A stretch of DNA of 60,281 bases, filler included, from Dimargaris cristalligena (Eukaryota): NCBI GenBank assembly GCA_003614675.1. It is 5 parts of 5 records of this genome, joined end to end, with 100 filler letters (N's around TTAATTAATTAA, not from the genome) between each part and the next. Parts side by side here need not be neighbours in the genome. Positions count along the whole stretch, not along the records: positions 1 to 11,983 come from ML003067.1; 4 more parts are not named here. One strand, written 5' to 3'. A program made the translations under genes and the position numbers. The notes under the pieces were generated by a model. It was not told the origin of the DNA and did no database searches. It worked only from the letters and a program-made list of their open reading frames with translations. Below are positions 1 to 48,314 of this stretch, one piece after another. Position 1 is the first letter of the stretch. Each line of letters starts with the position of its first letter.

Positions 1-103
1 TCCTCGTCACATTCACTAATCCTCTTTTATGTAGTACCCCCCTACATTCTCTCCCTGCCCTCTCCCCCCCCCTTCGGAACAATGTGTTTATATGCAACCG
101 TAG

Positions 104-2221
104 GCCATTCGCAAGAAGGCCGAGCAGGAACTCTCGCGCAAGATCTCCAGTCCCAAGAGCCGCAACCTGCAACGCACCAAGCGGGTGTCGGGCACCGTTT
201 CTAGCCTCCAGCCCTCGCCGGCCCTGACGGTGCGCCAGAGCATGACGATCCAGGAGGCGGCCCAACTCATGGCGGCCAAGCGAGCTGACTCGGTGCTGGT
301 GGTGGACAACGAAGAGCGCCTGGCGGGTATTTTCACGGCCAAGGATGTGGCCTTCCGGGTGGTGGCCGATGGCCTCGACGCCCGGGCCACCCTGGTATCG
401 CAAATCATGACCAAGAGTCCCCTGTGCGTGACCACGGATACGAGTGCTACTGATGCGCTGAACACGATGGTGAGCCGGGGCTTCCGCCACCTACCCGTCT
501 GCAATGACGAAGGGGACGTGGTGGGTCTGCTGGACGTCATCAAGTGCATGTACGAAGCACTCGAAAAGATGGAACGCGCTTACGGATCGAGCCGCAAACT
601 GTACGATGCCCTCGAAGGGGTCGAAAAGGAATGGGCGGTCCATCCGGCCCCGCTGTTGCAGTTCATTGATGTCATGCGTGAACGTATGGCCTGTCCCGAT
701 CTCATGTCGGTACTGGGTGATTCCGACCCGATTGTCGTATCGCCCCGCACCAGTGTGCGCGAGGTAGCCCATATGATGCGCACCCGCCGGACCACGGCCT
801 CACTGATTGTCGAGGATAACGAGCGACTGTCGGGTATTTTCACCAGCAAAGACATTGTGCTCCGCGTCATCGCCGCCGGTCTGGACCCCTCCAACTGCAG
901 CGTCATCCGCGTCATGACGCCCCATCCCGACACCGCCCTGCCCACCACCACCGTGCTGGATGCCCTCAAGCGCATGTACGAATACCACTACCTGAATCTG
1001 CCGGTCGTGTCGGCCGATGGCGGTATCATCGGGTTGGTGGACGTATTGACCCTGTGCTACTCGACGTTGGAGCAAATGAAATCAATTCAGGGGGCCGATG
1101 CCGAAGGTCCCATGTGGGGCCGGTTCTTCGGTGGGGCCGCCCCGGGCGCGGAAGGCGAGAATGAGTCCGTGTATTCGGATTCCATGATCAATTCCGGACA
1201 CCATCCCGGCTCGTCGTCCCTCTACCAGCCTACCACGTCCGACGTGTACCCGCACGACTCAGTATCCGTTGCTGAAGACATCGCCTCCGCGGTCAATTCC
1301 CGCATCGGCGGTGAATCCTACGTGGCCTCTACTACGGCCGGTCCCAGTCAGGGCGGGGCCCATTCGGTCGTCTACGAAGAGGGCCAGTACGTGTTCAAGT
1401 TCAAATCGCCGACGGGTAAAGTGCATCGGTTCACCTCTACCTATCAAGACCTACCCGAGCTCCAGTCCATCATTGTCCACAAACTGACCCTCGACGGGCT
1501 GCCCGATGCCGAACAGAGTCTGCTCGAGGCGGGTCTTTGCTACATGGACGAAGAAAATGACTACGTGCTCATTTCGTCCGAGACGGACCTGTTGGAGGCG
1601 GTCAAAATCGCCCGGGCCCACCAATGGCAACGTATTGTGCTGGCGCTGAACCCCGAGGTGGTGCCGACGGCTGCGGCAACCTCTTCGGTAGTTACCGGCG
1701 GCGGCGGTATCCCGGGCCCCGGGAGTGTGGCCGCAGGGTACCCGAGTTCCTCCCAGCTCGGGTCCCGGGCCCCTTCAGCAGCGGGTATGACCGCCAGCAT
1801 GACTGGTAGTTATTACCACGCCCATCCCCAAGCGTCGGCATACCAGTCGTACCCGCCGCCACCTCATTCGGTGGCGGATAGCGGCGCCCCGACCGGTAGT
1901 AGCCAAGTCGGCTACGGGGGCAGTAGTGGTTTCCTCTCGGCGCCCGGAGGAGGTCCCGAGTGGGATGAGGCCTCCGCGATAGCTGCTCAGCGATCGGTGG
2001 TACAAGGAGACGGTAGCGCCGCCCTGCACAGCCGTAAGGGAAGCACGACGGGGTCGACGGTCGGCGGTGATAACAACTCCCCCCAAACGGCTAATTCGGA
2101 TGATAATAAGCCCAAGTATCCCGGTGGCTTACCCGAGCCGTGGGTCATCCCGGCGGCCATTGCCGGGGGCTTCTTGGCCGCATTAGTGGGTGTTGTGATT
2201 ATCCTTAAAGCCACCAAATAA
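104..2221 (+). CDS. CBS-domain/PB1-domain tail-anchored protein (Mug70-like), last exon; 5' exon(s) lie upstream of the window
   Basis: Acceptor TAG at 101-103, then in-frame AIRKKAEQELSRK leading into ORF 185..2221. Two CBS pairs (LAGIFTAKDVAFRVV...IMT, GFRHLPV; LSGIFTSKDIVLRVI...VMT, YLNLPVV), a PB1-like segment (FKFKSPTGKVHRF...YMDEENDYVLISSETDL) and a C-terminal hydrophobic helix (WVIPAAIAGGFLAALVGVVIIL). Confidence 0.9.
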   Translation, partial: AIRKKAEQELSRKISSPKSRNLQRTKRVSGTVSSLQPSPALTVRQSMTIQEAAQLMAAKRADSVLVVDNEERLAGIFTAKDVAFRVVADGLDARATLVSQIMTKSPLCVTTDTSATDALNTMVSRGFRHLPVCNDEGDVVGLLDVIKCMYEALEKMERAYGSSRKLYDALEGVEKEWAVHPAPLLQFIDVMRERMACPDLMSVLGDSDPIVVSPRTSVREVAHMMRTRRTTASLIVEDNERLSGIFTSKDIVLRVIAAGLDPSNCSVIRVMTPHPDTALPTTTVLDALKRMYEYHYLNLPVVSADGGIIGLVDVLTLCYSTLEQMKSIQGADAEGPMWGRFFGGAAPGAEGENESVYSDSMINSGHHPGSSSLYQPTTSDVYPHDSVSVAEDIASAVNSRIGGESYVASTTAGPSQGGAHSVVYEEGQYVFKFKSPTGKVHRFTSTYQDLPELQSIIVHKLTLDGLPDAEQSLLEAGLCYMDEENDYVLISSETDLLEAVKIARAHQWQRIVLALNPEVVPTAAATSSVVTGGGGIPGPGSVAAGYPSSSQLGSRAPSAAGMTASMTGSYYHAHPQASAYQSYPPPPHSVADSGAPTGSSQVGYGGSSGFLSAPGGGPEWDEASAIAAQRSVVQGDGSAALHSRKGSTTGSTVGGDNNSPQTANSDDNKPKYPGGLPEPWVIPAAIAGGFLAALVGVVIILKATK

Positions 2222-4863
2222 GTAGGATAGTAAGAATTGGGCGTTTCTTTGGACCAGCTTTAGTTTAAACGGCCGACTGTTGAAAGGAAGCGATTAGGTG
2301 TGGCATGGAAAGATAAGATTGTGATATGGACGTATCATACTTCGCCTTTCTCTCCCACTACCACTCTACCTCCAACACCTCCGACGTTACCCCCACCATG
2401 ACATTACCCTGTTGCAATTACTAAGCCCTTATCGTATTTTTTTCGGGATTCTCTAGTGGCATACCTTTTATTAACACTTCCAATTCGTTAGTTTTGCGCA
2501 ATCACCTATCATAGGCATTTTAAAGTATACGGGCAAATCCCTATTTCTTCCACTCGCGCTATTATTTTTTTATTCATTCAATACATTTATAAATGCATCA
2601 ACAACCATTGCTCACTGGGGACGTTTGTGTAAATTGGCATACAAGCTATGATGAGAGAGGGGGAGGGCTAATAAGAATTATGTATTGGTGAGTGTTATCG
2701 ACTATCCACACATCTTGGGTTGACGGAAATACAACGAAAATAGGGCAAGAGGGAGGGGACGGCCGACTAGACATCTGCCCAAGTGGATTTATCAACGGGA
2801 GGATTCCCAACTTTAATATGTACCAGCTGTGGGTCCCCCGCCCACTTCCGCCCGACTCTTGTTATTGGAAGATGGTTCAAATTAGGGGAGATAATCTGCC
2901 ACTCCGGAGGATGCCCGCTGGACCGCCATGAAAGATCCGCCGATTTTTTTTGTAGCTCCCAGTATAGATTGGTGCATTAGAGAGATGGAGAGGGACGGGC
3001 CTAAAGCCATGGTCGGCGTAATAAATTTAGCTGAGTTAATGTGTGTTTTTGTTTTTATTTTTTAGGTAACCCAGTGTTAATTAAGGGTCAATTAGTTTGT
3101 ATATTGTGTTGGTATATCGGGGTATAGTTTTCCCTCCAAGAGGAGACGGAATGGGTTGACGAAAAAAGATAATATGGGTGTATATATATATTCATTCTAT
3201 AATTATCGAGAGATTTTGAAGGGGGGTCTCTTGAATTACTTGAATGTACCCTTGTCCCCCACCCAATACTAGAATGGGCAAACCATGTAAGCAGCCTATC
3301 GTCGGCTTATCTCGGTATTCGGTTACTCGACTGTGAATCTTCTCGGTCCACAATGGAGAAGGAGGAGGAGGGGGGGGGGTTGAAGGAAGATAACGATAGT
3401 AGTGTTGGCAGCCCCATTGGTGTAAAAGCCGCCAAAACGACGCGGGGCGCCTCAACACTGCCCACGATGGCTCTAGTAAGCAGCGAAATGCACAGCTGGT
3501 CAAGGGGCCATCACTCCCCCCCCCCCCTTCAGCAGCACCAAGTACTGGGTATAAATTAACAGGGGTGTTGTGGTGGAGGAGTTGAAGTATTTAGCCAGCC
3601 TTCGTTATCGGCCAGACAGGTAAATCCAATACAACAACCGATCGGACGTAACGGTGGGTGGTGACGGTCATACCATATTAACTCTTCTCGCCCCAAATCC
3701 CTTGAAGCAAGGTTTAGTGCATCTATCTCTCTCCACCACGGAAATGCAGCGTACCTCTCCTTCTACATATAATAATCCTTTAGCATCTATCTATACCATG
3801 GTGGTGGATGGACATCATCAACTAAAAATAACCGAACGATTTCCAACATGACTATCGATTAAATTACCATTATCCGGCAGTGAGCAGATGTCCATTTTCA
3901 GCCCACAACGATGTGTGGCCCATGACAGGAGATTTCGACCAAAGCCCATTCAGGCGTTGGTTTACGGAACAGTAAACCTGGTAGGTAGACCAGAAAATAG
4001 TATACTATACATACCTATTTATTTATACCGTTCGTTCCTAATGATAGCTGCTCACATACGAGCTATCAATCACATCATCATTCTTTTACACACGTTTACC
4101 GGTCAATGATATATAAGTTATTCCAAGCATTAATGCTACAAGTATATTAGGTGTTATAAGATAGTAAGGAGGGGAGAAATAAAAGACGGAAAATGCATGT
4201 CACCAGTAAGCCATCATATAACAGGACCCATTGATGAATATGCAATCAAAATAGGGGTTGGGGCAGCGGAAAGGAGAGAGACGAGCACACACATATCCAA
4301 GGCCAAGAAGATACGATGACTAGCTAGATGAAGGGGGAGATGATGTGGAGGAAGGGGGTGGAGGCGCAACCAGGCCAGCTAGTCGTTGAAATAATAAGGA
4401 GCAAAAAACCGAACGCTAAAAAACACCCATCAGCGGAAATTGGAGCTATTGTTGGAAATACTAAGGAATATCGGAGGAACATTCGGATACGCCTTATTAT
4501 TCCTCAAAGCGGGAGGATACACACATACAACCATCCCGCCTATCTATTATTATAGAATATGTAGAGTTCCCATACGGGGGAGCATCTCATTAGGCTAAAA
4601 GCAAGACGGATTTTAACGCTTGGGTTTGTCGCGTCTTGTAGGACGTCACCCCTCCTCCTCTCCACATTCACCTCTTCCAGGCACTAAAATAAAACCAAAA
4701 CAATTGCCCCACTAACTAACTTATGGGGGGGGGTTGTTAAAGTATAGGGGAGATTATATAGGAAGGACTATTACTGGTGGCTGGAAGGGGGAATAAAAGA
4801 AGGAACCGGTGGAATTGAGGGTTCGTTAGGCGTGTGGGTTTGGACGGGAATAGGAAACGGAAT

Positions 4864-5733
4864 TTAGAGGGTGACCTGACGCTTGCAGTTCGTGCATCTA
4901 CGCCGGCATTTGCGACCAGAGGTGGTGGTCGTAGTAGTTCCGGAGTAGTCGACAGCGCCGGTGGTGGTGGGGGCGGTAATGATATCGGTGACGGGGGAGG
5001 CTTCCACCATGGGGTTAGTGGTGGTAGTGGCAGCCACCGTCGGGGTCATTTCAGCGGCGCGGTTGTCGGTGACGGTAGGGGTGGCCGTCGCGGCCGAAGA
5101 AGAAGCAGAAGCAGCCTGCGAACTGCCGCCCTTAATGGCCAAATCGAAACAGGTGGAGTATTGCTGACCCGCGGGGTTCTGGTTGAACTCCCAGAAGAGG
5201 ACCAGCTGGAACCGGTCGCTGCTGGGCAGAGTGGCGGGCAGAGTGTAGGTACCCCAGCAATTGGAGTTATCTAACCAGCCGTCGCAGCGGGCTTCGTCCA
5301 TGAACTTCCACTCACCGAGGACCTCGGCCTTGCTGCGCTCGTTATAGTTCACTTCGCCCAGCTCGCGCCCGGGGAAGTACAGGACCTTCATGACGGTATC
5401 ACGGAAAGACTGGTGTCCGTTAATTTCGTACGACACCTTGTAGGTCTTGCCCGCCACGGCCTCGCCCATGGGGAAGGCGGTGGAGTACATGGGCGAGCCC
5501 TGCAGCTTGGGGTCACACATCAGCTGGGACGAGGGGGTCCCGGAAAACAGGTAGGTGTACTTGGTGTTAATGTCAATGTCGTTGCGGCCGGGGTACCCAC
5601 GGCCATAGGCGGTACAGTCCTTGGTCACGGGATCAAAGTCGAAGCAGTCGCCCCAAGTGTGGGCGGTAGCTTGCTGGGGCAGAGTCGATAGGCCGACCAC
5701 CGAGAGGGCGGCAGCTAGCATAAAGGAACGCAT
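4864..5733 (-). CDS. Secreted protein with N-terminal His; LPMO-like/histidine-brace candidate (resembles DUF7492-type proteins), with Ser/Thr-rich linker and basic Cys tail
   Basis: ATG at 5733; signal peptide MRSFMLAAALSVVGLSTLPQQATA followed by HTW. Second His in YEINGH, QQYSTCFD motif, six Cys in the domain, T/S/A-rich stalk. GC-rich coding-like composition. Confidence 0.8.
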   Translation of the reverse strand: MRSFMLAAALSVVGLSTLPQQATAHTWGDCFDFDPVTKDCTAYGRGYPGRNDIDINTKYTYLFSGTPSSQLMCDPKLQGSPMYSTAFPMGEAVAGKTYKVSYEINGHQSFRDTVMKVLYFPGRELGEVNYNERSKAEVLGEWKFMDEARCDGWLDNSNCWGTYTLPATLPSSDRFQLVLFWEFNQNPAGQQYSTCFDLAIKGGSSQAASASSSAATATPTVTDNRAAEMTPTVAATTTTNPMVEASPVTDIITAPTTTGAVDYSGTTTTTTSGRKCRRRCTNCKRQVTL

Positions 5734-6553
5734 ATTGTAAGGAGTTTCGTCCAAAAGAAAACGGGTAGGACGACAGTTGGATTATACTGCCTGTGTGTGT
5801 ATGTATGTGTGAGGGAAGAAGAGCTCTAACAAGAGTGTCTCTTACTTTGGTTCAAAGAAAATTAAACCGCGTCAGGAGTTAGAAAGAAGGAACGAACGAA
5901 GAGGCGGAGGTATATGCAAATAACCAAACGGCGAAGAAGCAACTATACGGATATAATTGCAGGTGCAACCCTGTAAAAATTTAGTGCGTCAATCAAATAC
6001 GAGCTGAAAAAACAAGCGGGTGGTGGTTTCCAAGGAATTAATTTCTAGGGAAAAGGGCAAGATTGGGGGATACGCGACACAATCGGGCGAAGAGACGGCA
6101 GGAATAATGGCAGCGAGGAGACTTGCGACCGAATGATATATAGATGAAAGCGGCAGCGAGGGGAACACTTAAGTGTGAAGGGGATATATGAAAAAGAAGT
6201 AGATATAGGAAAGGGGAGCACACAGCTATTATTAGCTAATGGCAGAGGAGAGAAATAGAAGTTGGTATTAATAAATCCAAAGGAGACAACGAGAAGGGTG
6301 AATAGCACTAGGCTAGAGAATCGTTAGAGAGGGTTCACAGTAGGAAGATACAGGCTGGCTGTAGCGTCATGCAGATGCAAAGAGATGGCGGTTTCTTCAG
6401 GAACACCCGTGTCAACGAGGGAGAGCAAGTAGGGCAAACGGATAACCAACGCGTGGTTATTGTATAGAGATGAATAGAGAAGGCCAGGAGGATACTACCG
6501 TTAGTACTAAGTAGGTGTAAAATAGTAGTGACAAGACAATAAAAGGAGGAATA

Positions 6554-6586
6554 ATAGTAGTGGTGGTAGTAGTAGTGGTGGTAGTA

Positions 6587-6625
<39 letters not shown>

Positions 6626-6643
6626 ATAGTAGTAATAGTAATA
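6554..6643. repeat. Compound trinucleotide microsatellite (GTA/GTG/ATA)n
   Basis: Direct reading: tagtagtggtggtagtagtag...agtaatagtaata. Confidence 0.95.
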
Positions 6644-9600
6644 GGAAGAGGAAGAGGAATAGTAACTGTAGTACGACCAGGCACAAATGCAGCCTCCCTT
6701 GGACCAGGGGGCGACGGCCGTTATATACTACTGCACTGTACAGTGCGCGGGTGGAGCTCGGCTCCTTTCCGTTGGAACGGAACACCACCCGTTCTCTCTC
6801 CCATTGAATTACCACTAGAAATACACCCCCAGTGTAGGCCCAACCAACTGATTGCCCTTGTTGTTCCCCTTTTTCACTGTCTCTCCTCCCCTTTGTCGTG
6901 TGGACCTCCCGCTAAACCATCATCCGTACTGTTGGCTAATTTTGAATATAGGGGCACCAATGGGTCCCATATCCGTCAGCCAACCCCCATCCGCCATGGG
7001 GGTGTCCACCCGATACTCTCCTTTCCCGTCCTGATGGCCTTTTCTTATCCACACACCTAGGCTTACTACTTAATTGGCCGGTATTCTCTATACCAGTGGT
7101 GAATTCCGTGGACCTCTTCTGGTTACATTACAATATACAACCGGCTTTTCATTTACGGAAACTATCATCAAATTAGGTGGAAGGGGGCAAAATGAAGCTG
7201 ATAGGGGAAACTTTTATCAATGGGGGGTGCCCCCCACATTCCTATCTCTTTTTTTGACACTCTCATCTCTCGCTACCTAATTAATTGGCTGGCGCTTCCC
7301 TCCTGCCATGCTGCTGGTGGCCAGCCCGCTGGGTGCCTAGATTGCTCCCTTCACCAGTGGGACGGGTGTGAGTGGGGGGAGGGACTATACTATACTAAAA
7401 TAATCTAAAATAACCCCTAGTAAAAGAATGGGTGTGATAGGTGAACTGCCCCACACACACGGTACAGCTCGGTTCTATAATCATTCCCATTCAATTGGCC
7501 CAGCATGGCTCGGACATTGAGGTTCGTTGCCATATGTGTTGAATGGTGGTGGTTCTTCAAGTTTATCAAAGGTGCCATGGCGGGTCTGGATTGGACTACG
7601 CCTCTTCCCCCTATGGGGTAACAACCTTTATCCGGCCCTCCTCGTAGATACCACCATCCATCCACGGACAATAGTATTACCTTAATTCCAAGAATTGTAT
7701 TAGGTCACACTAAACGTAGCCTATAGAATAGTATATACGACCTTCAGCAGTATACTACACTGAGGTTGGGCTGAATCTTCAATACTTGGGCCGTTGTTGT
7801 CCATGAAAATAAATGGAGTAAGAAGGAGAGGGATAGGCTACACGCTGCCCGAATCGGATGGTATGGGCCATCTGTCGTGGTTAACCTAACTGGATTGGTG
7901 GGGTGTCTATTTAATTTTGGAAGGTAAGGGGAACCGGTGCCGAGAAAACGGCATTTGGGTCCCACTCAACCAAAACAAACACCCTGAATTATTGGGAGGG
8001 GGGAACTGTGGCGGCCATAGATGAGATTGATCAGGTCGTGAGGCGGCTGAAAGCATTAAACAAGCCAAACAATAGCAGCTTCTGCCCCTTTTTGGGGCGT
8101 ATCTCTCTTTCTGTGTTATTTTACTCTCCTTTCCTCCTCCTCCCGGCCAATTCCTCTCCTTTCCTTGGGCAGTGTATAGGAAGGAGGAGAGGCATTGTCG
8201 GGCGGCCAATTGGAAAGAGCTTTCAGTCCCTTTTAGCATTTTGGTTACTTGCTTGCCCATCCCAGGTTAATCATTATGGGCTATTGGTCCGTGGAATGTA
8301 AATGACTGTTTATCTAAAACATATGAAACGAGAAGTTCCTTTTGGCCATTGGTGAGTTCTGTTTCATCTGTTGTTGTTAGTCCTTTGTCACCTATTCGCC
8401 ATCCTCTAGTAGAGGATGCTAAGCAAAGGGCAGGTGGAAAAGGAGCGCATCGCACACTTGCCTATTGGAAGATACGATGGTGGAGCTCATTATTAACCTA
8501 TGCGACTATTATTATAGCCTCGGACGGTGCGGCATTTTCGTAACACCAACGCCGTTTCCCTCTCTTATGCCAAACCACGCCAGTTTTGCCCCATATACAC
8601 CTTACATCTCTTGAACACTGTGATGGTCTGCCCAAGATTCATGTGGTTCCGCCCCTTTCCCTCCTGGACCAGCGCCCCGTTCTATCGGAGGGCTTGTCAG
8701 CTCCACACTGCCCTGATGGTTTTCCTCTCCCCTCTTTTCCCCTTGCCTTCTCCCCCCTCTAAAGCCCACACACCATGGACTATATATCCGTCCATGTGGG
8801 GGGACCTCATCCATACTGGAAACATGGTTGTGGGCATCGTGCCCTAGCCTATTCCGACGGGATGGAGTAGATACGGCCCACAATCGCATCCTCTCTCCCC
8901 AAGGCTGGTCACCCGCCAAGAGGCCCACTATCGTCATCGTAGGTCCTATTTACTCAGGCACGCATTTGCCCTTCTTCACCCCCCAAAAATTCATGAAAGG
9001 CCAGTTTCAATCGGGCCTGGCGGAAATTCGAATGTCCGATGTTCCCCATTCGCTCTTTTAACTAGCCGCGAAGGCTGAATGGAAAATAACTTCTGGGATA
9101 TATAGACTCACCCCTTTCTTTCTTGATCCACTTCTTCTTTGGCACCGTCTCATTCGGGCTTAGAGGGGAGGGGGGACATTCACAGGCAAATCCAACTAAG
9201 CAATCCTTGGAGCCACTCCAAAGGAAAAAGAGGAATCATCATGATTCATTCATTTTTTGTTTTAACCGCCCCCATACGCATACTCTCATATTCAGCCTTG
9301 CCTCGTCTACTCCACCTAATGCATGACATGGTTCGGTCTGCAACGGACTTGCTGGGCGGGAAGGTTCCGGATATGATGGGAGGGCGATGGATTTGGCGGG
9401 ACAAGAACAGGGATTCGAGCGAACTGAACCTCGTGCGCGGGTAAACTTATATTCCGCGGTTAGTGGAGTGGAGGCCAGCAATCAACGCCAGCTCATCCTA
9501 CTGTGTCACTGAAAAATAAAAATCGAGGGACATAAGTGTCGGTGTGAAGGTGTGGAATGCTCATCCGCCTAGCTTCCACATTTGTCGATCACACTTCCTA

Positions 9601-9741
9601 ATCGGGTTTAGTGTCCAAGGTCGCGTAGAATTCACATGAGGGCCATATCCCAGTTGAAAATAGGGGGGCCGCCTAGCCTTCAAAATCTAGTCTTTTTTCA
9701 ATTCTTCCCTATTCCGCGTTCAGTTGGATTTTCGTTTACAT

Positions 9742-9768
9742 GAGAGAGAGAGAGAGAGAGAGAGAGAG
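9742..9768. repeat. (GA)n microsatellite
   Basis: Uninterrupted gagaga run. Confidence 0.95.
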
Positions 9769-11983
9769 GGTTCGGGACTCCCCTCCAATATAGTCGCGGC
9801 TCCTCTTAGGTACCACCACATCACCCTGCCTAAATTACCAGCAACATACTCCCACAAAAAGGAACACTCTGTGGCTTCTTGCCCCGTTCCTGGCTGGCTG
9901 GGGTAGATAAATAGGAATGGGCCGTAGCATCGGAATGATAAACACCCGGCCCCCGATCAGAGCCCCGAAACTTCCCGCTGGCGCAGCAAGACACTTACCT
10001 GTATTTGTTGCTGCCTAACCGGTCTAACCGGTATCCGGCAAAGTGGACTGTGTGTCGACACTGTGGTGGGATAGGCCCACTCCTCTCTTCAACCCACAAA
10101 CTATAAAGCGGGTTGTAAGTCGAAAGCGGCCTTCTCGTTGTCACTCACTGACCTCCCTTGGGAGTGAATCAGTCGCTGAGTGAAATGGGTGCTCTTTATC
10201 TGTTGATGTCATTGCGGTCAACTAGTGTGCGTGTGTACATATATATATATATATAGGTGTGGGTGTGTTTGGTGGTTGATCGGCATGTTTAGGACTGGCA
10301 TATATGACTTTCCTTCTATTGGTATAAGAGTAAAATTATATATCCACCAGCACACCAATCTCGGGATGAAACATCGCCATGTTCGACCATCCCCCAAGTT
10401 AGTCGAGATAGGCTCCGCTACAACCATCTACGTGCGGCATCAGCATTTCATCCTGATTTACACAGTTAACGGATGGTAAACCGAAGCATGTCCATTGATG
10501 TAAGTCCGAAGTGCAATTGGAACAAGCTACCCCAGTTATTTTTGTATCCACTAGCAAATGCGAACAGCCCAGCGGGGGTGTCGCAGGTTTCGTACAAGGT
10601 CCCCGACCAGATGGCCCAAAGTACCGTTGAAGCCCACTCTTAATACGGTAGTTGTTATTTTCTCGAACACCAACCCACATCCTAGTTTGTTCACCATAGC
10701 AACTATCTAGATGGTGATTTCGGTAGGCGGGTCTTTGATTTACGGTACTACTCTGCCGCCGTGTATATCTCGAGAGCAGCCGTGATGTCACTTGGCCATC
10801 CTATATGGTCGGTTCAGTTATAAACGCAAGCCATTTTCCGTATTTATCGACGATGCGATTACTCCCTGTTGCTCATTTCTCATCAGCAGGGATCATTTGT
10901 TAAACAAAGGGCCTGTGATTTACAAATCCCTCATTCCCACATTGGAATTGGCAGGCGAAAACAACACTTTTCCGGCAATTAGCAAGGTGATATCTTATTG
11001 CTATATTAGCTTTGAAGTTGCTGATGCCATAATCCATTGATGATTGGTCTTACAATATGTTGTGCAGCTTGACCATGAACGTTCATCCATATTAGGCCTA
11101 GAGAGGAACCACCACCAGTGTGTGCTATTCTCTCAAAAGAAACCGCGAACACCACAAACTGAATGGCTATCCTCCTCTTTTCTCCATTGCGCTATCATCC
11201 TATGGGAACATTGCTTTTTTCAAGGATTCTTTGTAGACGAATCGGTGTAACGTTTCTCTATTGTAAGGAAACCGGACCAGCTCCACATTCCCGCGTAGTC
11301 CAATAACCATTCCTGTTTCGCCTTGGCCAGGAACCCACTGGCCCCCCGAAAGTAGCTTTAAGCCGAAACCATTCAAGGGGGTGCGCCCAGTCTATCGGTC
11401 GATTGGGCGATGCGCCCAGCGATAAGTATGATAATCAAAGTGGATTCTACTTGTCCTGAACACACCAACTAATCGTTCTTATTGGGTTTATTAGCCAGAT
11501 AACCAACTGATATTCGATGGACCTAATAGGCCTTCCCGCCTCTGCCGGCCACTGGTAGGCGTGCCCTATTCGATCCTACTGACCTATCCCGGCGTATCTC
11601 TTTGCAGATAGATGGGGTCCCACGTTTCCCCAAAAGGCGATTCCACCACCTAATTGGTTTCCAGGCAGCCAATGGCAAGCAAACATGGCGAGTGGCGGGT
11701 TCCCTTCCTTTTTACACCTATAAGGGAGTTGCGTGGTCCTTTCGTCCACGCTCCACACACGAATATATAAGAGTAATCCATGTTGAAACTCTTGAAAGCA
11801 AGTCCATATAAATCCATGCAACTGCCTAGCCATTCTACTCTTGGCATTTCTTTAGATCCGATTAGTTGCCAATATCTACTCCCATTCAATATTATAGGGC
11901 GGGGAATGGTTGACTACGTTTTTAACTGGGCGGTGATGGCGAAGCCATTGGATGGAACTAGGTGTATGTTGACCATTGCCAGT

Positions 11984-12083
11984 NNNNNNNNNNNNNNNNN
12001 NNNNNNNNNNNNNNNNNNNNNNNNNNNTTAATTAATTAANNNNNNNNNNNNNNNNNNNNNNNNNNNNNNNNNNNNNNNNNNNN
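11984..12083. other. Assembly gap with artificial six-frame stop spacer TTAATTAATTAA
   Basis: N-run with the 12-mer at 12028-12039; the same construct occurs at all four gaps. Confidence 0.97.
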
Positions 12084-24063: not shown

Positions 24064-24163
24064 NNNNNNNNNNNNNNNNNNNNNNNNNNNNNNNNNNNNN
24101 NNNNNNNTTAATTAATTAANNNNNNNNNNNNNNNNNNNNNNNNNNNNNNNNNNNNNNNNNNNN
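24064..24163. other. Assembly gap with TTAATTAATTAA spacer
   Basis: N-run with spacer at 24108-24119. Confidence 0.97.
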
Positions 24164-36142: not shown

Positions 36143-36241
36143 NNNNNNNNNNNNNNNNNNNNNNNNNNNNNNNNNNNNNNNNNNNNTTAATTAATTAANN
36201 NNNNNNNNNNNNNNNNNNNNNNNNNNNNNNNNNNNNNNNNN
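36143..36241. other. Assembly gap with TTAATTAATTAA spacer
   Basis: N-run with spacer at 36187-36198. Confidence 0.97.
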
Positions 36242-38685
36242 NGGGGGGGGGGGGGGGGTTCCAATATTGACAAGAGAGGGGGGAATTGAACTATATACAA
36301 AAAGGTCTGGCTTATTGAACGTACCCTTTTACAGGTGTACTCTACACATAATTGGGCGAGACAGTCGTCGAACATCCACTACAGACACGATGTAAGGGCA
36401 TGACAGCGATTATTGGATACATGGATCTTCGACTTGAACTTATTCGATGACAGTTAATTCGCCAACGATGTACTACCGAAAATATAGGGCAGGGGAAATT
36501 GTGGAACTCTATCAAGCTGCTAATTGGCACCTCAGTATGGGCGGTATTCGACACAGCTCTATAGGAGTATGTATGAAACGAAGAGGGAAAGCACCCTTTC
36601 ACGCTAAACAGAATATCAGGTATATAGCCAGACAGGATGACACACATGTCGTGTATAGAAGGTAGTCTCTGACAGCAACCAGCCGCGTAATATAGGTGAG
36701 CGTAGAAAAGCATTGTTGAACAATTTAAGTTTTACTAAGGCCCCCTATTTCGATGTTTTTATAATGAGGGGGCATAGGAGATACGCGGAGAAATGTACTT
36801 TTTATACTTAAATGGATCGAGCCCCGCCTCTGGGTGTAACGGAGTCTGGACTTCAAATCCGAATGGGTTAATTGAGGGGATGTCAGTTCTATGGTTTGGA
36901 CAAGCCCAGTTCAACTATTGGGCCATTAAGCTGATGACCCTTCCCCGTTGTAAAGGCATATACAAAAAACCGGACATAGTCTCGTTTGTCATGGACGCAC
37001 TGACGTTAAAATGTAACCATGTGCCTGCGATTATAGGTCAACAATTTTCTTGGTACGCTTTGAGGTCGCCTAGTTATTGGGTACATATACTAAACCTCGC
37101 GACGTGGTCACTCCCTCTTCTCCCCCGCCACCGCATTAGGTCTGTTTGGGTGCGTACGTAAATATGTATTCGATCCCTTATGCGCATCGTAATAGACTGC
37201 ACTAGACCGAAAAAGGGACTGGTAGGAAACAGCCGAACAAAATGATTTGGGACGGTTGGTTGTTATCAAAACCAACCGCCCTCGCCCCCTTTTAGTACGG
37301 GAAAGACACCTTTCCTTAGGTATGCTACCCTATTGATAAACGCATACACTGCGCTCCCTAATACCCCTCTGGTTTGCCAGCTATAATACTATTTTTTTCG
37401 GCTGTGTGCAGTTGTCCCACCCCGAATCCCACTGCCTTAGTCTATAGGACGACTACTATTAGAGAAAACATAGCCAACAGGTCCAAATGGCCGGGTTAGG
37501 GGGAGGGGTTGGTACAATGACCAAGCTCAAAGTAGAGATTTGGTAAAGTAAAACTGCGCTCTAGGAATAATAATATCATAGCAAAGGGCCGGTGTGTCCT
37601 GCCTTTCGGCAAATATACTCGCTGTTGGGGCGTGAGAGAGATGTTCTCCCTGCTTTTGTTGTAATAGAAAATGCACCTCCCCTGTCATGAAATTCCATGT
37701 AGTAGGCGGGATAAATAGATCGATCATATAGGGGAATTTCGGGCACTAACGGGTCAGAAAACCGAATCGCCAAACCAGGCAGACTATCCCATAGTGGGTG
37801 TGTTTCCTTCTGGCACATTATAGGGGATGGTGCACGGTGGGTTGCTCCATACTCTTAAATACTCTTTAGGTAGATTTCCTGCACCTAATGGATTTGGTTG
37901 GGTTAGGGAATGTTAGAAAAGGTAGGCGTCATTGGGAACGGGTGAAGCACATGCAAATGAGAGAGATTATGTAAGTATAAGAGAACTTGGCACTACTGCC
38001 CTGGCAAATATAAAATATATTTCACTGGTCAACCCAGGAACGGGATGTGAAGCACGGCTGATTGGAACGAAATCTCTACTCAATTCCCCCAAAGGCCTTA
38101 TTATTCCTACCCACATTTAGCCACTCCACGGCGAATCTATTTACCAAGGCCTACGTTGGAATAGGGCAAGTGCATTTCTGTTGGCCATGTAGGGTGGTTC
38201 CGCGGGCCTATTGAAACTGCAGTAGATTTGTGCCACACACTCCATAGAAACACAGAGAAGGTGGGCCAACTGGTCATCGGAAAACCGAAAGGCCGACAAG
38301 CTGCGACAGTAAACATTTCTTCGCCACTTTTGGCTACTACTACTGAGCTGCCATATTTTCCTGTACCTTGAGGCACAACCCCTTGCTCTTTTATAGAAGG
38401 TGCTTGCTAAAATGAGTATTTATAAATAATTAATTTTAAGGCTGGCATGTATCATTGCCCCCATAGTTTATCCACTCTATAGCCAACATAGTCTCTCCCC
38501 TTAGAGGTAATTATTACAAGTATTATATTTTGGTTAACCTTAGTTAAATTTATTGTTACAAGCAGCAGGACGGCAATTTAAGTTAATGAATAGTTGGTTA
38601 GCTGGGGCGGGGGCCGGAGGACCCCCCGGTGGCCAAATCGGTGGTAGGAGGGGTGTTTTTGCTATATCCCACCACGGGTCATTTT

Positions 38686-48214: not shown

Positions 48215-48314
48215 NNNNNNNNNNNNNNNNNNNNNNNNNNNNNNNNNNNNNNNNNNNNTTAATTAATTAANNNNNNNNNNNNNNNNNNNNNNNNNNNNNN
48301 NNNNNNNNNNNNNN
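48215..48314. other. Assembly gap with TTAATTAATTAA spacer
   Basis: N-run with spacer at 48259-48270. Confidence 0.97.

What the first reader, a model, noticed from the sequence alone, without database searches (positions are those of the whole stretch)
4864..5733. Secreted histidine-brace (LPMO-like) protein that fits no classical AA family I recognise
Seen: signal peptide ending A-T-A leaves His as mature residue 1 (codon 5661-5659); second His at mature position ~83 (YEINGH); Q-x-Y at ~166-168 in GQQYSTCFD; six Cys; then a Thr/Ser-rich stalk. Known: lytic polysaccharide monooxygenases (AA9/10/11/15/16) bind Cu through His1, a second His and an axial Tyr/Phe in a (Q/E)-x-Y-x-x-C motif at similar spacing. 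Inference: a copper enzyme or copper-binding protein of a poorly characterised family (resembles DUF7492 as I recall it), possibly acting on chitin or glucan walls.
Basis: partly seen in the sequence, partly recalled or inferred. Interest (0 to 1): 0.8.

Follow-up and report, generated by a model that had tools for sequence, protein, structure and literature searches.

The report
Unclassified LPMO-type copper protein family
This intact gene of a fungus-parasitising fungus encodes a secreted protein with the fold and copper-binding residues of polysaccharide-cutting copper enzymes (LPMOs), but it belongs to an untested family that matches none of the LPMO families I could compare it with.

Summary
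Observation confirmed. It passes Pfam DUF7492 (36.6 bits, cut-off 27) and is 98% identical to a Dimargaris cristalligena hypothetical protein. In 67 aligned relatives: His1 62 (4 rows truncated), His83 67, Tyr168 65, Glu/Gln166 64. The model (pLDDT 93) has the LPMO fold but scores flat against AA9/10/11/13/15/16 (Z 8.4-11.0, 9-19% identity); a true AA11 from the same genome scores Z 17.5, 34%. AA11 is nearest by sequence, but the protein is not a member. Brace geometry could not be measured directly. Best reading: a secreted copper histidine-brace oxidase cutting a wall polysaccharide (about 0.55). It has two copies here and relatives across many lifestyles, so own-wall remodelling is likelier than host attack. 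Main rival: a non-lytic copper or peroxide protein like X325 or AA16. No paper names DUF7492, but automatic annotators already label some relatives LPMO-like, and this scan noted a DUF7492-like gene in another genome. Verdict: candidate new LPMO family, untested.

The parts
4864..5733 (-). Single-exon CDS, 289 aa plus stop; DUF7492 protein
   Evidence: 98% identical to a D. cristalligena hypothetical protein
5662..5733 (-). Predicted signal peptide, aa 1-24, ending A-T-A
   Evidence: hydrophobic core and (-3,-1) pattern, shared by 60 of 60 scorable His1 rows; SignalP not run
5128..5661 (-). LPMO-fold beta-sandwich domain, mature residues 1 to about 178
   Evidence: AlphaFold2 pLDDT 93, pTM 0.88; top 21 of 48,161 chains are LPMO or LPMO-family chains, Z 8.4-11.0
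5659..5661 (-). His1, predicted copper ligand (amine and imidazole)
   Evidence: 62 of 67 rows, 4 truncated; aligns with AA11 His1
5413..5415 (-). His83 in N-G-H, predicted second brace histidine
   Evidence: 67 of 67 rows; loop after strand 73-79, within two columns of the AA11 second His
5164..5166 (-). Gln166, predicted second-sphere residue (Glu in most relatives)
   Evidence: Glu 53, Gln 11, Asp 2, Pro 1 of 67; aligns with the AA11 Glu
5158..5160 (-). Tyr168, predicted axial residue
   Evidence: 65 of 67; aligns with the AA11 Tyr on the last strand
5149..5646 (-). Six domain cysteines (6, 16, 49, 126, 135, 171); pairing 6-16, 49-171, 126-135 is my inference
   Evidence: kept in 50, 53, 66, 64, 64, 67 of 67 rows
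4918..5121 (-). Ser/Thr-rich low-complexity stalk, aa 205-272, probably disordered and O-glycosylated (inference)
   Evidence: 43% Ser/Thr; poorly alignable among the closest relatives
4867..4917 (-). Basic C-terminal tail with three Cys
   Evidence: Lys-Cys invariant in the 8 closest rows; K/R-C-basic motif in 11 of 67 rows

Best explanation
The protein is secreted and the signal peptide is cut after Ala24, freeing His1 (strongly inferred). His1 and His83 bind one copper ion as a histidine brace on an LPMO-type beta-sandwich, with Tyr168 axial and Gln166 positioning H2O2 (inferred from fold and conservation). After reduction, the copper uses H2O2 or O2 to oxidise and break glycosidic bonds of an extracellular polysaccharide, most plausibly chitin, chitosan or beta-glucan of a fungal wall (inferred from family knowledge, substrate unknown). 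The stalk spaces the domain from a basic Cys tail that may bind the wall or form disulfide-linked dimers (weak inference). The low copy number and the spread of relatives over unrelated lifestyles point to remodelling of the fungus's own wall more than to a dedicated host-attack role. It is a DUF7492 protein, outside the AA families tested.
For: Fold: top 21 of 48,161 chains are LPMO or LPMO-family chains, aligned from model residue 1 to about 177-189. Conservation of His1, His83, Tyr168, Glu/Gln166. Profile-profile match to AA11, probability 96%, putting His1, Glu/Gln and Tyr in register. Tyr-Glu and Tyr-Gln are the second-sphere pairs of catalytic AA11 and AA9 enzymes (PMC12186267, passages), whereas X325 uses an Asp as fourth ligand (PMC10952591, passages). 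Three relatives carry carbohydrate-binding modules: CBM96 in P0025 and P0084, Carb_bind in P0052. Two copies in this genome against at least 9 AA11 genes. Named relatives in Dimargaritales, Kickxellales, Ramicandelaber, Syncephalis, Entomophthorales, Mortierellales, Allomyces, Rhizophlyctis, Savitreella and Pezizales.
Against: No member was found with an assay. A typical brace does not guarantee cleavage: MtAA16A and AnAA16A have one and did not cut polysaccharides (PMC10088020, abstract). 16 of 67 rows end in a hydrophobic, GPI- or membrane-anchor-like tail, as GPI-anchored Bim1 does. Only 3 of the proteins scanned carry a recognised binding module. Brace geometry and a flat substrate surface could not be inspected in the model. 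His83 is offset by two columns from the AA11 His in the profile alignment.
Confidence: 0.55

Rival explanations
1. A copper histidine-brace protein that does not cut polysaccharides: a copper carrier or buffer at the cell surface like X325/Bim1, or an H2O2-producing oxidase like some AA16 proteins that feeds the genome's many AA11 enzymes.
For: Precedents in PMC10952591 (passages) and PMC10088020 (abstract). Anchor-like tails in 16 of 67 rows. At least 9 AA11 genes are present as possible partners. The four BIM1-like proteins of this genome lack His1, so a copper-carrier slot could be open.
Against: The domain is full LPMO size (about 178 aa) and scores higher against catalytic LPMOs (Z up to 11.0) than against X325 (Z 7.8). 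It keeps the Glu/Gln-x-Tyr pair in 64 and 65 of 67 rows. No profile similarity to the BIM1-like proteins (hhalign probability 0.2%).
Confidence: 0.28
2. A true LPMO specialised for attacking the host fungus's wall at the haustorium, for example a chitosan-rich wall (Mucorales hosts and their chitosan walls are recalled, not checked).
For: The species is a biotrophic mycoparasite (PMC6784888, passages). Its orthologue clade in Dimargaris, Dispira and Tieghemiomyces has switched to Gln166 while the paralogue clade keeps Glu, and this gene is freely secreted, not anchored.
Against: No expansion: 2 copies, while AA11 is the expanded family (15 in D. cristalligena, PMC6784888 supplementary file 8). 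Relatives occur in Coemansia, Mortierellales, Allomyces and truffles. Gln166 also appears in Spiromyces and Entomortierella rows.
Confidence: 0.12
3. A divergent AA11 that a curated classification would absorb into that family.
For: AA11 chains are the best sequence hits of the family profile in the PDB (E 1.3e-9, 1.6e-9, 8.4e-6); hhalign to AA11 gives probability 96%; most rows share the Tyr-Glu pair described as unique to AA11.
Against: Those hits cover only profile positions 157-224 of 310, the last two strands and linker. A profile from 9 AA11 genes of this genome scores this domain 6.8 bits and the best family row 13.4; the reverse scores 17-22 bits over about 40 residues. Structure: Z 9.3-10.4 at 12-15% identity to AA11 against Z 17.5 at 34% for a real AA11.
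Confidence: 0.04
4. Not a copper protein: a non-catalytic wall-binding or structural beta-sandwich.
For: Z values of 8-11 are only moderately above common beta-sandwich matches (NIS1 at 7.3).
Against: The only two His of the protein are among its best-conserved residues across rows that are 20-58% identical, and His1 sits exactly at the predicted cleavage site in 60 of 60 scorable rows.
Confidence: 0.03

Closest known systems
Pfam DUF7492 (PF24320)
   Same: Passes the cut-off (36.6 bits against 27); 66 of 67 aligned rows hit it at E <= 0.01; Atlas structure row meets the bar for this name.
   Different: The Pfam model is centred on an Ascomycota-rich cluster; this protein is a distant zoopagomycete member whose best stretch covers profile positions 185-259 of 265. 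No function is attached to the family.
AA11 LPMOs (AoAA11 4MAH/4MAI, AfAA11B 9EXJ/9HDG, 7P3U)
   Same: Fold (Z 9.3-10.4), His1, second His after the first core strand, W-x-W ... E/Q-x-Y-x-x-C on the last two strands.
   Different: 12-15% structural identity; N-G-H replaces the H-x-G-G-x-C loop seen in this genome's AA11s; a longer insertion with Cys126 and Cys135; this gene has Gln, not Glu; profile scores do not cross.
AA10, AA13 and AA15 LPMOs (7OKR, 4OY7, 4OPB, 5MSZ)
   Same: Highest structural scores, Z 9.7-11.0, tied within about 1.
   Different: No Pfam LPMO_10 hit for this protein; 1 of 67 rows hits it weakly; AA10 examples have axial Phe; identity 9-15%.
AA9 LPMOs (7NTL, 6HA5, 7OVA)
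   Same: Tyr-Gln pair and Q-x-Y-x-x-C motif; weak phmmer hits E 0.1-0.27; Z 8.5-10.1.
   Different: No AA9 Pfam hit for this protein; no third His, which NcAA9C has; domain ends at the Tyr strand.
X325/Bim1 copper proteins (6IBH) and AA16 (7ZE9)
   Same: Same fold family; Z 7.8 and 8.7; many relatives look surface-anchored.
   Different: Larger domain; keeps Glu/Gln-x-Tyr; no BIM1-like Pfam hit in 67 rows.
AA9-X283 proteins with Cys and basic tail (CoAA9A)
   Same: Disordered stalk ending in Cys followed by basic residues; there the Cys drives a disulfide dimer (PMC10990093, passages).
   Different: The tail here has three Cys and lacks the RXHAR consensus; dimerisation is untested.
Egh16-like TrsA, proposed as a new LPMO family (PMC12377627)
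   Same: Secreted fungal histidine-brace candidate outside the CAZy families.
   Different: Different Pfam family (no Egh16-like hit); TrsA has Phe facing the brace (passages).

Membership tests
Pfam DUF7492 | Score above the gathering cut-off | tested here: met
   36.6 bits against 27
LPMO superfamily (works like) | Secreted with His as mature residue 1 | tested here: met
   (-3,-1) pattern and hydrophobic core; 60 of 60 scorable rows. Sequence pattern only; SignalP and N-terminal sequencing not done.
LPMO superfamily (works like) | Immunoglobulin-like beta-sandwich of LPMO type | tested here: met
   pLDDT 93; top 21 chains LPMO-family, Z 8.4-11.0
LPMO superfamily (works like) | Conserved second His, axial Tyr/Phe and second-sphere Glu/Gln | tested here: met
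   67, 65 (+1 Phe) and 64 of 67 rows; register against AA11
LPMO superfamily (works like) | His1, His83 and Tyr168 converge in space as a T-shaped brace | tested here: inconclusive
   Coordinates not available to measure. Indirect: same strand register as the AA11 control model; structural alignments start at residue 1.
LPMO superfamily (works like) | Binds one Cu and oxidatively cleaves a polysaccharide | not testable with these tools
   needs bench assay
LPMO superfamily (works like) | Flat substrate-binding surface with exposed aromatic residue | not testable with these tools
   conserved aromatics exist (W3, Y23, Y35, Y37, Y59) but their exposure could not be inspected
AA11 | Sequence similarity to AA11 over the whole catalytic domain | tested here: not met
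   6.8 bits against a 9-sequence AA11 profile; only the last 40 or so residues match; control AA11 hits 7P3U at E 4.5e-28
AA11 | Structure clearly closer to AA11 than to other AA families | tested here: not met
   AA11 listed at Z 9.3-9.9, tied with or below AA10 and AA13; control 17.5 against 11.5 for the next family
AA9 | Pfam AA9 (PF03443) hit | tested here: not met
   no hit at E <= 1; 4 of 67 rows hit it at E <= 0.01
AA10 / AA15 | Pfam LPMO_10 (PF03067) hit | tested here: not met
   no hit at E <= 1; 1 of 67 rows at E 5e-4
AA13, AA14, AA16 | Family-level sequence or structure similarity | tested here: not met
   listed at Z 10.4, 7.3 and 8.7 with 12, 10 and 16% identity; no profile hit to their PDB sequences at E <= 10
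AA17 | Family-level similarity to oomycete pectin-active LPMOs | tested here: inconclusive
   no chain labelled AA17 was listed; 8S71 'Oxidoreductase B from Phytophthora sojae' (Z 7.1) may be one, not verified
AA18 | Family-level similarity | not tested
   named in PMC13431639 (passage) citing Santos et al. 2025; I recall that enzyme as a different fold; no sequence was at hand
X325/Bim1 | Pfam BIM1-like (PF20238) similarity | tested here: not met
   no hit; hhalign 0.2% against 4 BIM1-like proteins of this genome
X325/Bim1 | Asp as fourth copper ligand | tested here: inconclusive
   conserved acidic or amide positions exist (D5, D/N160, N/D162, D/E173); distance to the site not measurable
Any CAZy AA family | dbCAN/CAZy HMM assignment | not testable with these tools
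   no CAZy library on hand

The most novel reading that the evidence does not exclude
DUF7492 is an old, pan-eukaryotic LPMO family, as distant from AA9, AA10, AA11, AA13 and AA15 as they are from each other, that acts on a wall polymer for which no dedicated LPMO family is established (chitosan or beta-1,3/1,6-glucan; that gap is recalled). It switches naturally between Tyr-Glu and Tyr-Gln active sites, even between the two paralogues of this genome, and some branches have coupled the copper domain to a membrane span and a cytoplasmic WW domain.
Probability: 0.2. Interest if true: 0.8.

Novelty: new variant of a known kind. Interest (0 to 1): 0.52.

Why it matters
Each new LPMO family has tended to bring a new substrate or a new biological role, so a well-bounded untested family spanning early-diverging fungi, some ascomycetes and unnamed eukaryote sequences is a concrete target. 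The gene is intronless, the domain is compact and has no N-glycosylation sequon, so it is easy to express. The Gln/Glu pair of paralogues is a natural test of how the second-sphere residue tunes copper reactivity, a question so far studied with point mutants (PMC12186267). If it is non-lytic, it adds a case to the open question of what brace proteins without lytic activity do. The ceiling is limited: it is one more family of a known enzyme class, and automatic annotation already half-recognises it.

Tried and rejected
Single-sequence PDB search: only weak AA9 hits, E 0.1-0.27. I suspected from recall that distant rows such as P0085 were AA17; its PDB search gave only 7P3U at E 0.027, so I dropped that. 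No chain labelled AA17 appeared in the three fold searches of this model; absence from a list excludes nothing. Own-genome searches for LPMO_10, AA9 and Egh16-like found no match; the genome may be incomplete and the AA9 and Egh16 searches rang in no control genome, so these show nothing. RNA runs: no RNA holder listed. Phage collection, tblastn: no match. Gene neighbourhood: on this contig (window 1-11983) the only other ATG-started ORFs of 150 aa or more are a CBS/PB1 protein and a short frame antisense to it, so no functional cluster. Literature: 'DUF7492' anywhere, 0 papers; two narrower LPMO searches gave 0; seven others listed nothing on this family by title or abstract start. The library lacks most subscription papers. 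The first BIM1 comparison had one wrong-strand row and was redone. No complex prediction was run, since no binding claim is made.

Full report
THE GENE. The stretch 5733-4864 on the minus strand is one uninterrupted frame of 289 codons with GC3 of 0.78. It lies on contig C860 of genome G000, which covers window positions 1-11983; the rest of the window is other DNA beyond N runs. The closest database protein is 98% identical and is annotated as a Dimargaris cristalligena hypothetical protein; orthologues in Tieghemiomyces, Dispira and Coemansia are 42-58% identical (7 hits among 158 candidates). The organism is therefore taken to be Dimargaris, described as a biotrophic mycoparasite (PMC6784888, passages).

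FAMILY AND CONSERVATION. Pfam gives one family, DUF7492, at 36.6 bits over a cut-off of 27. A search of 1.84 billion representatives returned 82 proteins at E <= 0.001. Alignment A2 holds the mature domain, 62 of those 82 and four more orthologues. I left out 20 by eye as fragments, frameshifted or duplicated gene models or long unrelated-looking proteins (P0015, 19, 40, 41, 44, 45, 50, 54, 55, 57, 62, 64, 65, 66, 68, 73, 74, 81, 84, 86); this choice favours full-length rows and may raise the His1 count. In the 67 rows, 20-58% identical to the query, His1 is kept in 62 (4 lack the N-terminus, 1 has Arg), His83 in 67, Tyr168 in 65 (1 Trp, 1 Phe), position 166 is Glu in 53, Gln in 11, Asp in 2, Pro in 1, and Cys171 is invariant. 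His1 follows a small residue at -1 and a small or aliphatic residue at -3 in 60 of 60 scorable rows. 66 of 67 rows hit DUF7492. A search from the Rhizina protein added Tuber and Choiromyces, all hypothetical proteins bar one kinase-fused model (12 hits).

FOLD. The AlphaFold2 model has mean pLDDT 93.1 and pTM 0.88. Against 48,161 representative chains the top 21 are all LPMO or LPMO-family chains: AA10 11.0, AA13 10.4, AA11 9.9, AA15 9.7, AA9 9.1, AA16 8.7, at 9-19% identity; X325 follows at 7.8, AA14 at 7.3 and the unrelated NIS1 at 7.3 (searches agree). As a control I folded an AA11 from the same genome (pLDDT 77.5): it scores Z 17.5 at 34% identity to 7P3U and 11.5 or less to other families. 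Our protein thus shows the between-family level of similarity to every labelled family. Brace geometry could not be measured. Indirectly, His83 lies in the loop after strand 73-79 and Gln166/Tyr168 at the start of the last strand 166-176, matching His75 after strand 63-68 and Glu137/Tyr139 at strand 138-148 in the control. Profile-profile alignment to AA11 (probability 96.4%, E 1.2e-9) places His1, Glu/Gln and Tyr in register and His83 two columns from the AA11 His.

IS IT AA11? This was the main threat, because AA11 chains are the best PDB sequence hits of the profile (E about 1e-9) and D. cristalligena is reported to have 15 AA11 genes (PMC6784888, supplementary file 8). A motif search found 9 places in G000 and none with the reversed control pattern; all 9 encode His1 proteins with the AA11 motifs, and the one tested hits 7P3U at E 4.5e-28. 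A profile of these 9 scores our domain 6.8 bits and the best family row 13.4; the family profile scores them 17-22 bits over about 40 residues only. It is not an AA11. It has no AA9, LPMO_10, BIM1-like or Egh16-like Pfam hit; among 67 rows, 4 touch AA9 and 1 touches LPMO_10. AA17 is inconclusive, AA18 untested and dbCAN unavailable.

HOW IT LIKELY WORKS. Shown: an intact gene, a conserved signal-peptide-His1 junction, LPMO fold, and conserved His83, Glu/Gln166 and Tyr168. Inferred: one copper in a histidine brace and peroxygenase chemistry. The pair matters, since AA11 uses Tyr-Glu, AA9 Tyr-Gln and AA10 Phe-Glu (PMC12186267, passages), and X325 has an Asp ligand instead (PMC10952591, passages). 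In a FastTree tree of the 67 domains, midpoint-rooted, this gene sits in a Gln clade with Dimargaris, Dispira and Tieghemiomyces rows, its paralogue (L002, 42% identical, no stalk) sits in a sister Glu clade, and Gln recurs on other branches; deep nodes are weakly supported. For a polysaccharide substrate: two relatives carry CBM96 and one a Carb_bind domain (30 proteins scanned). Against certainty: two AA16 proteins with a typical brace did not cleave polysaccharides and only made H2O2 (PMC10088020, abstract), and 16 of 67 rows have anchor-like hydrophobic C-termini by my hydropathy threshold. Two copies here against at least 9 AA11, and relatives in fungi of very different lifestyles, favour own-wall remodelling over host attack; that step is inference. 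The tail (K/R-C-basic in 11 of 67 rows; also in 2 of 9 AA11s of this genome) resembles in kind the Cys-plus-basic tail that dimerises CoAA9A (PMC10990093, passages) but lacks its RXHAR motif.

NOVELTY. No paper in the library contains 'DUF7492', and nine further searches showed no study of this family (judged from listings, with passages read in PMC13431639, PMC13353379, PMC8615602, PMC8393829, PMC10079182 and PMC12377627). Most subscription papers are not searched. Automatic labels already point the same way: UniRef calls relatives chitin-binding type-4 or AA9 LPMO, and the nearest Atlas clusters are auto-named LPMO, chitin-binding type-4 and DUF7492. Earlier notes of this scan describe a DUF7492-like gene in another fungus and an unclassified LPMO-fold pair in a Basidiobolus-like genome; I did not check either, and no look-alike was found by sequence.

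VERDICT. Real, well conserved and very probably a copper histidine-brace protein (about 0.9). Probably a polysaccharide-cleaving LPMO (about 0.65 counting both the own-wall and host-attack readings). A member of DUF7492 and a candidate new AA family. New variant of a known kind; interest 0.52.

Noticed in passing
L002:1477-2097 (-), G000:C93: Paralogue, 206 aa, 42% identical, catalytic domain only with no stalk; has Glu where this gene has Gln166. 37 of 75 identical residues use a different codon.
   Followed up: partly
L004-L012 (G000 contigs C209, C234, C462, C607, C952, C1209, C1128): Nine AA11-type LPMO genes, with two each on C462 and C952; two end in a Lys-Cys-basic tail like this gene.
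   Followed up: partly
L015-L018 (G000 contigs C65, C171, C873, C669): Four BIM1-like (PF20238) proteins with signal peptides and hydrophobic C-termini; none has a His at the predicted mature N-terminus, so none can form a brace.
   Followed up: partly
proteins P0075, P0079, P0096, P0098, P0100, P0101, P0103, P0106: Distant relatives from unnamed sources join the LPMO-fold domain to a C-terminal WW domain; in P0075 and P0079 a hydrophobic span lies between them. A copper ectodomain wired to a cytoplasmic interaction module would be unusual.
   Followed up: no
proteins P0025, P0084, P0052: Family members fused to CBM96 or Carb_bind modules.
   Followed up: no
window 185-2221 (+): Neighbouring gene with four CBS domains, a PB1 domain and a hydrophobic C-terminus; no evident link.
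   Followed up: no
window 6500-6820: Simple repeat that reads as poly-Val or poly-Leu in two overlapping ORFs; probably non-coding.
   Followed up: no
window 11984-12083, 24064-24163, 36143-36242, 48215-48314: Paired N runs; the window is stitched from separate pieces, only 1-11983 being this gene's contig.
   Followed up: yes
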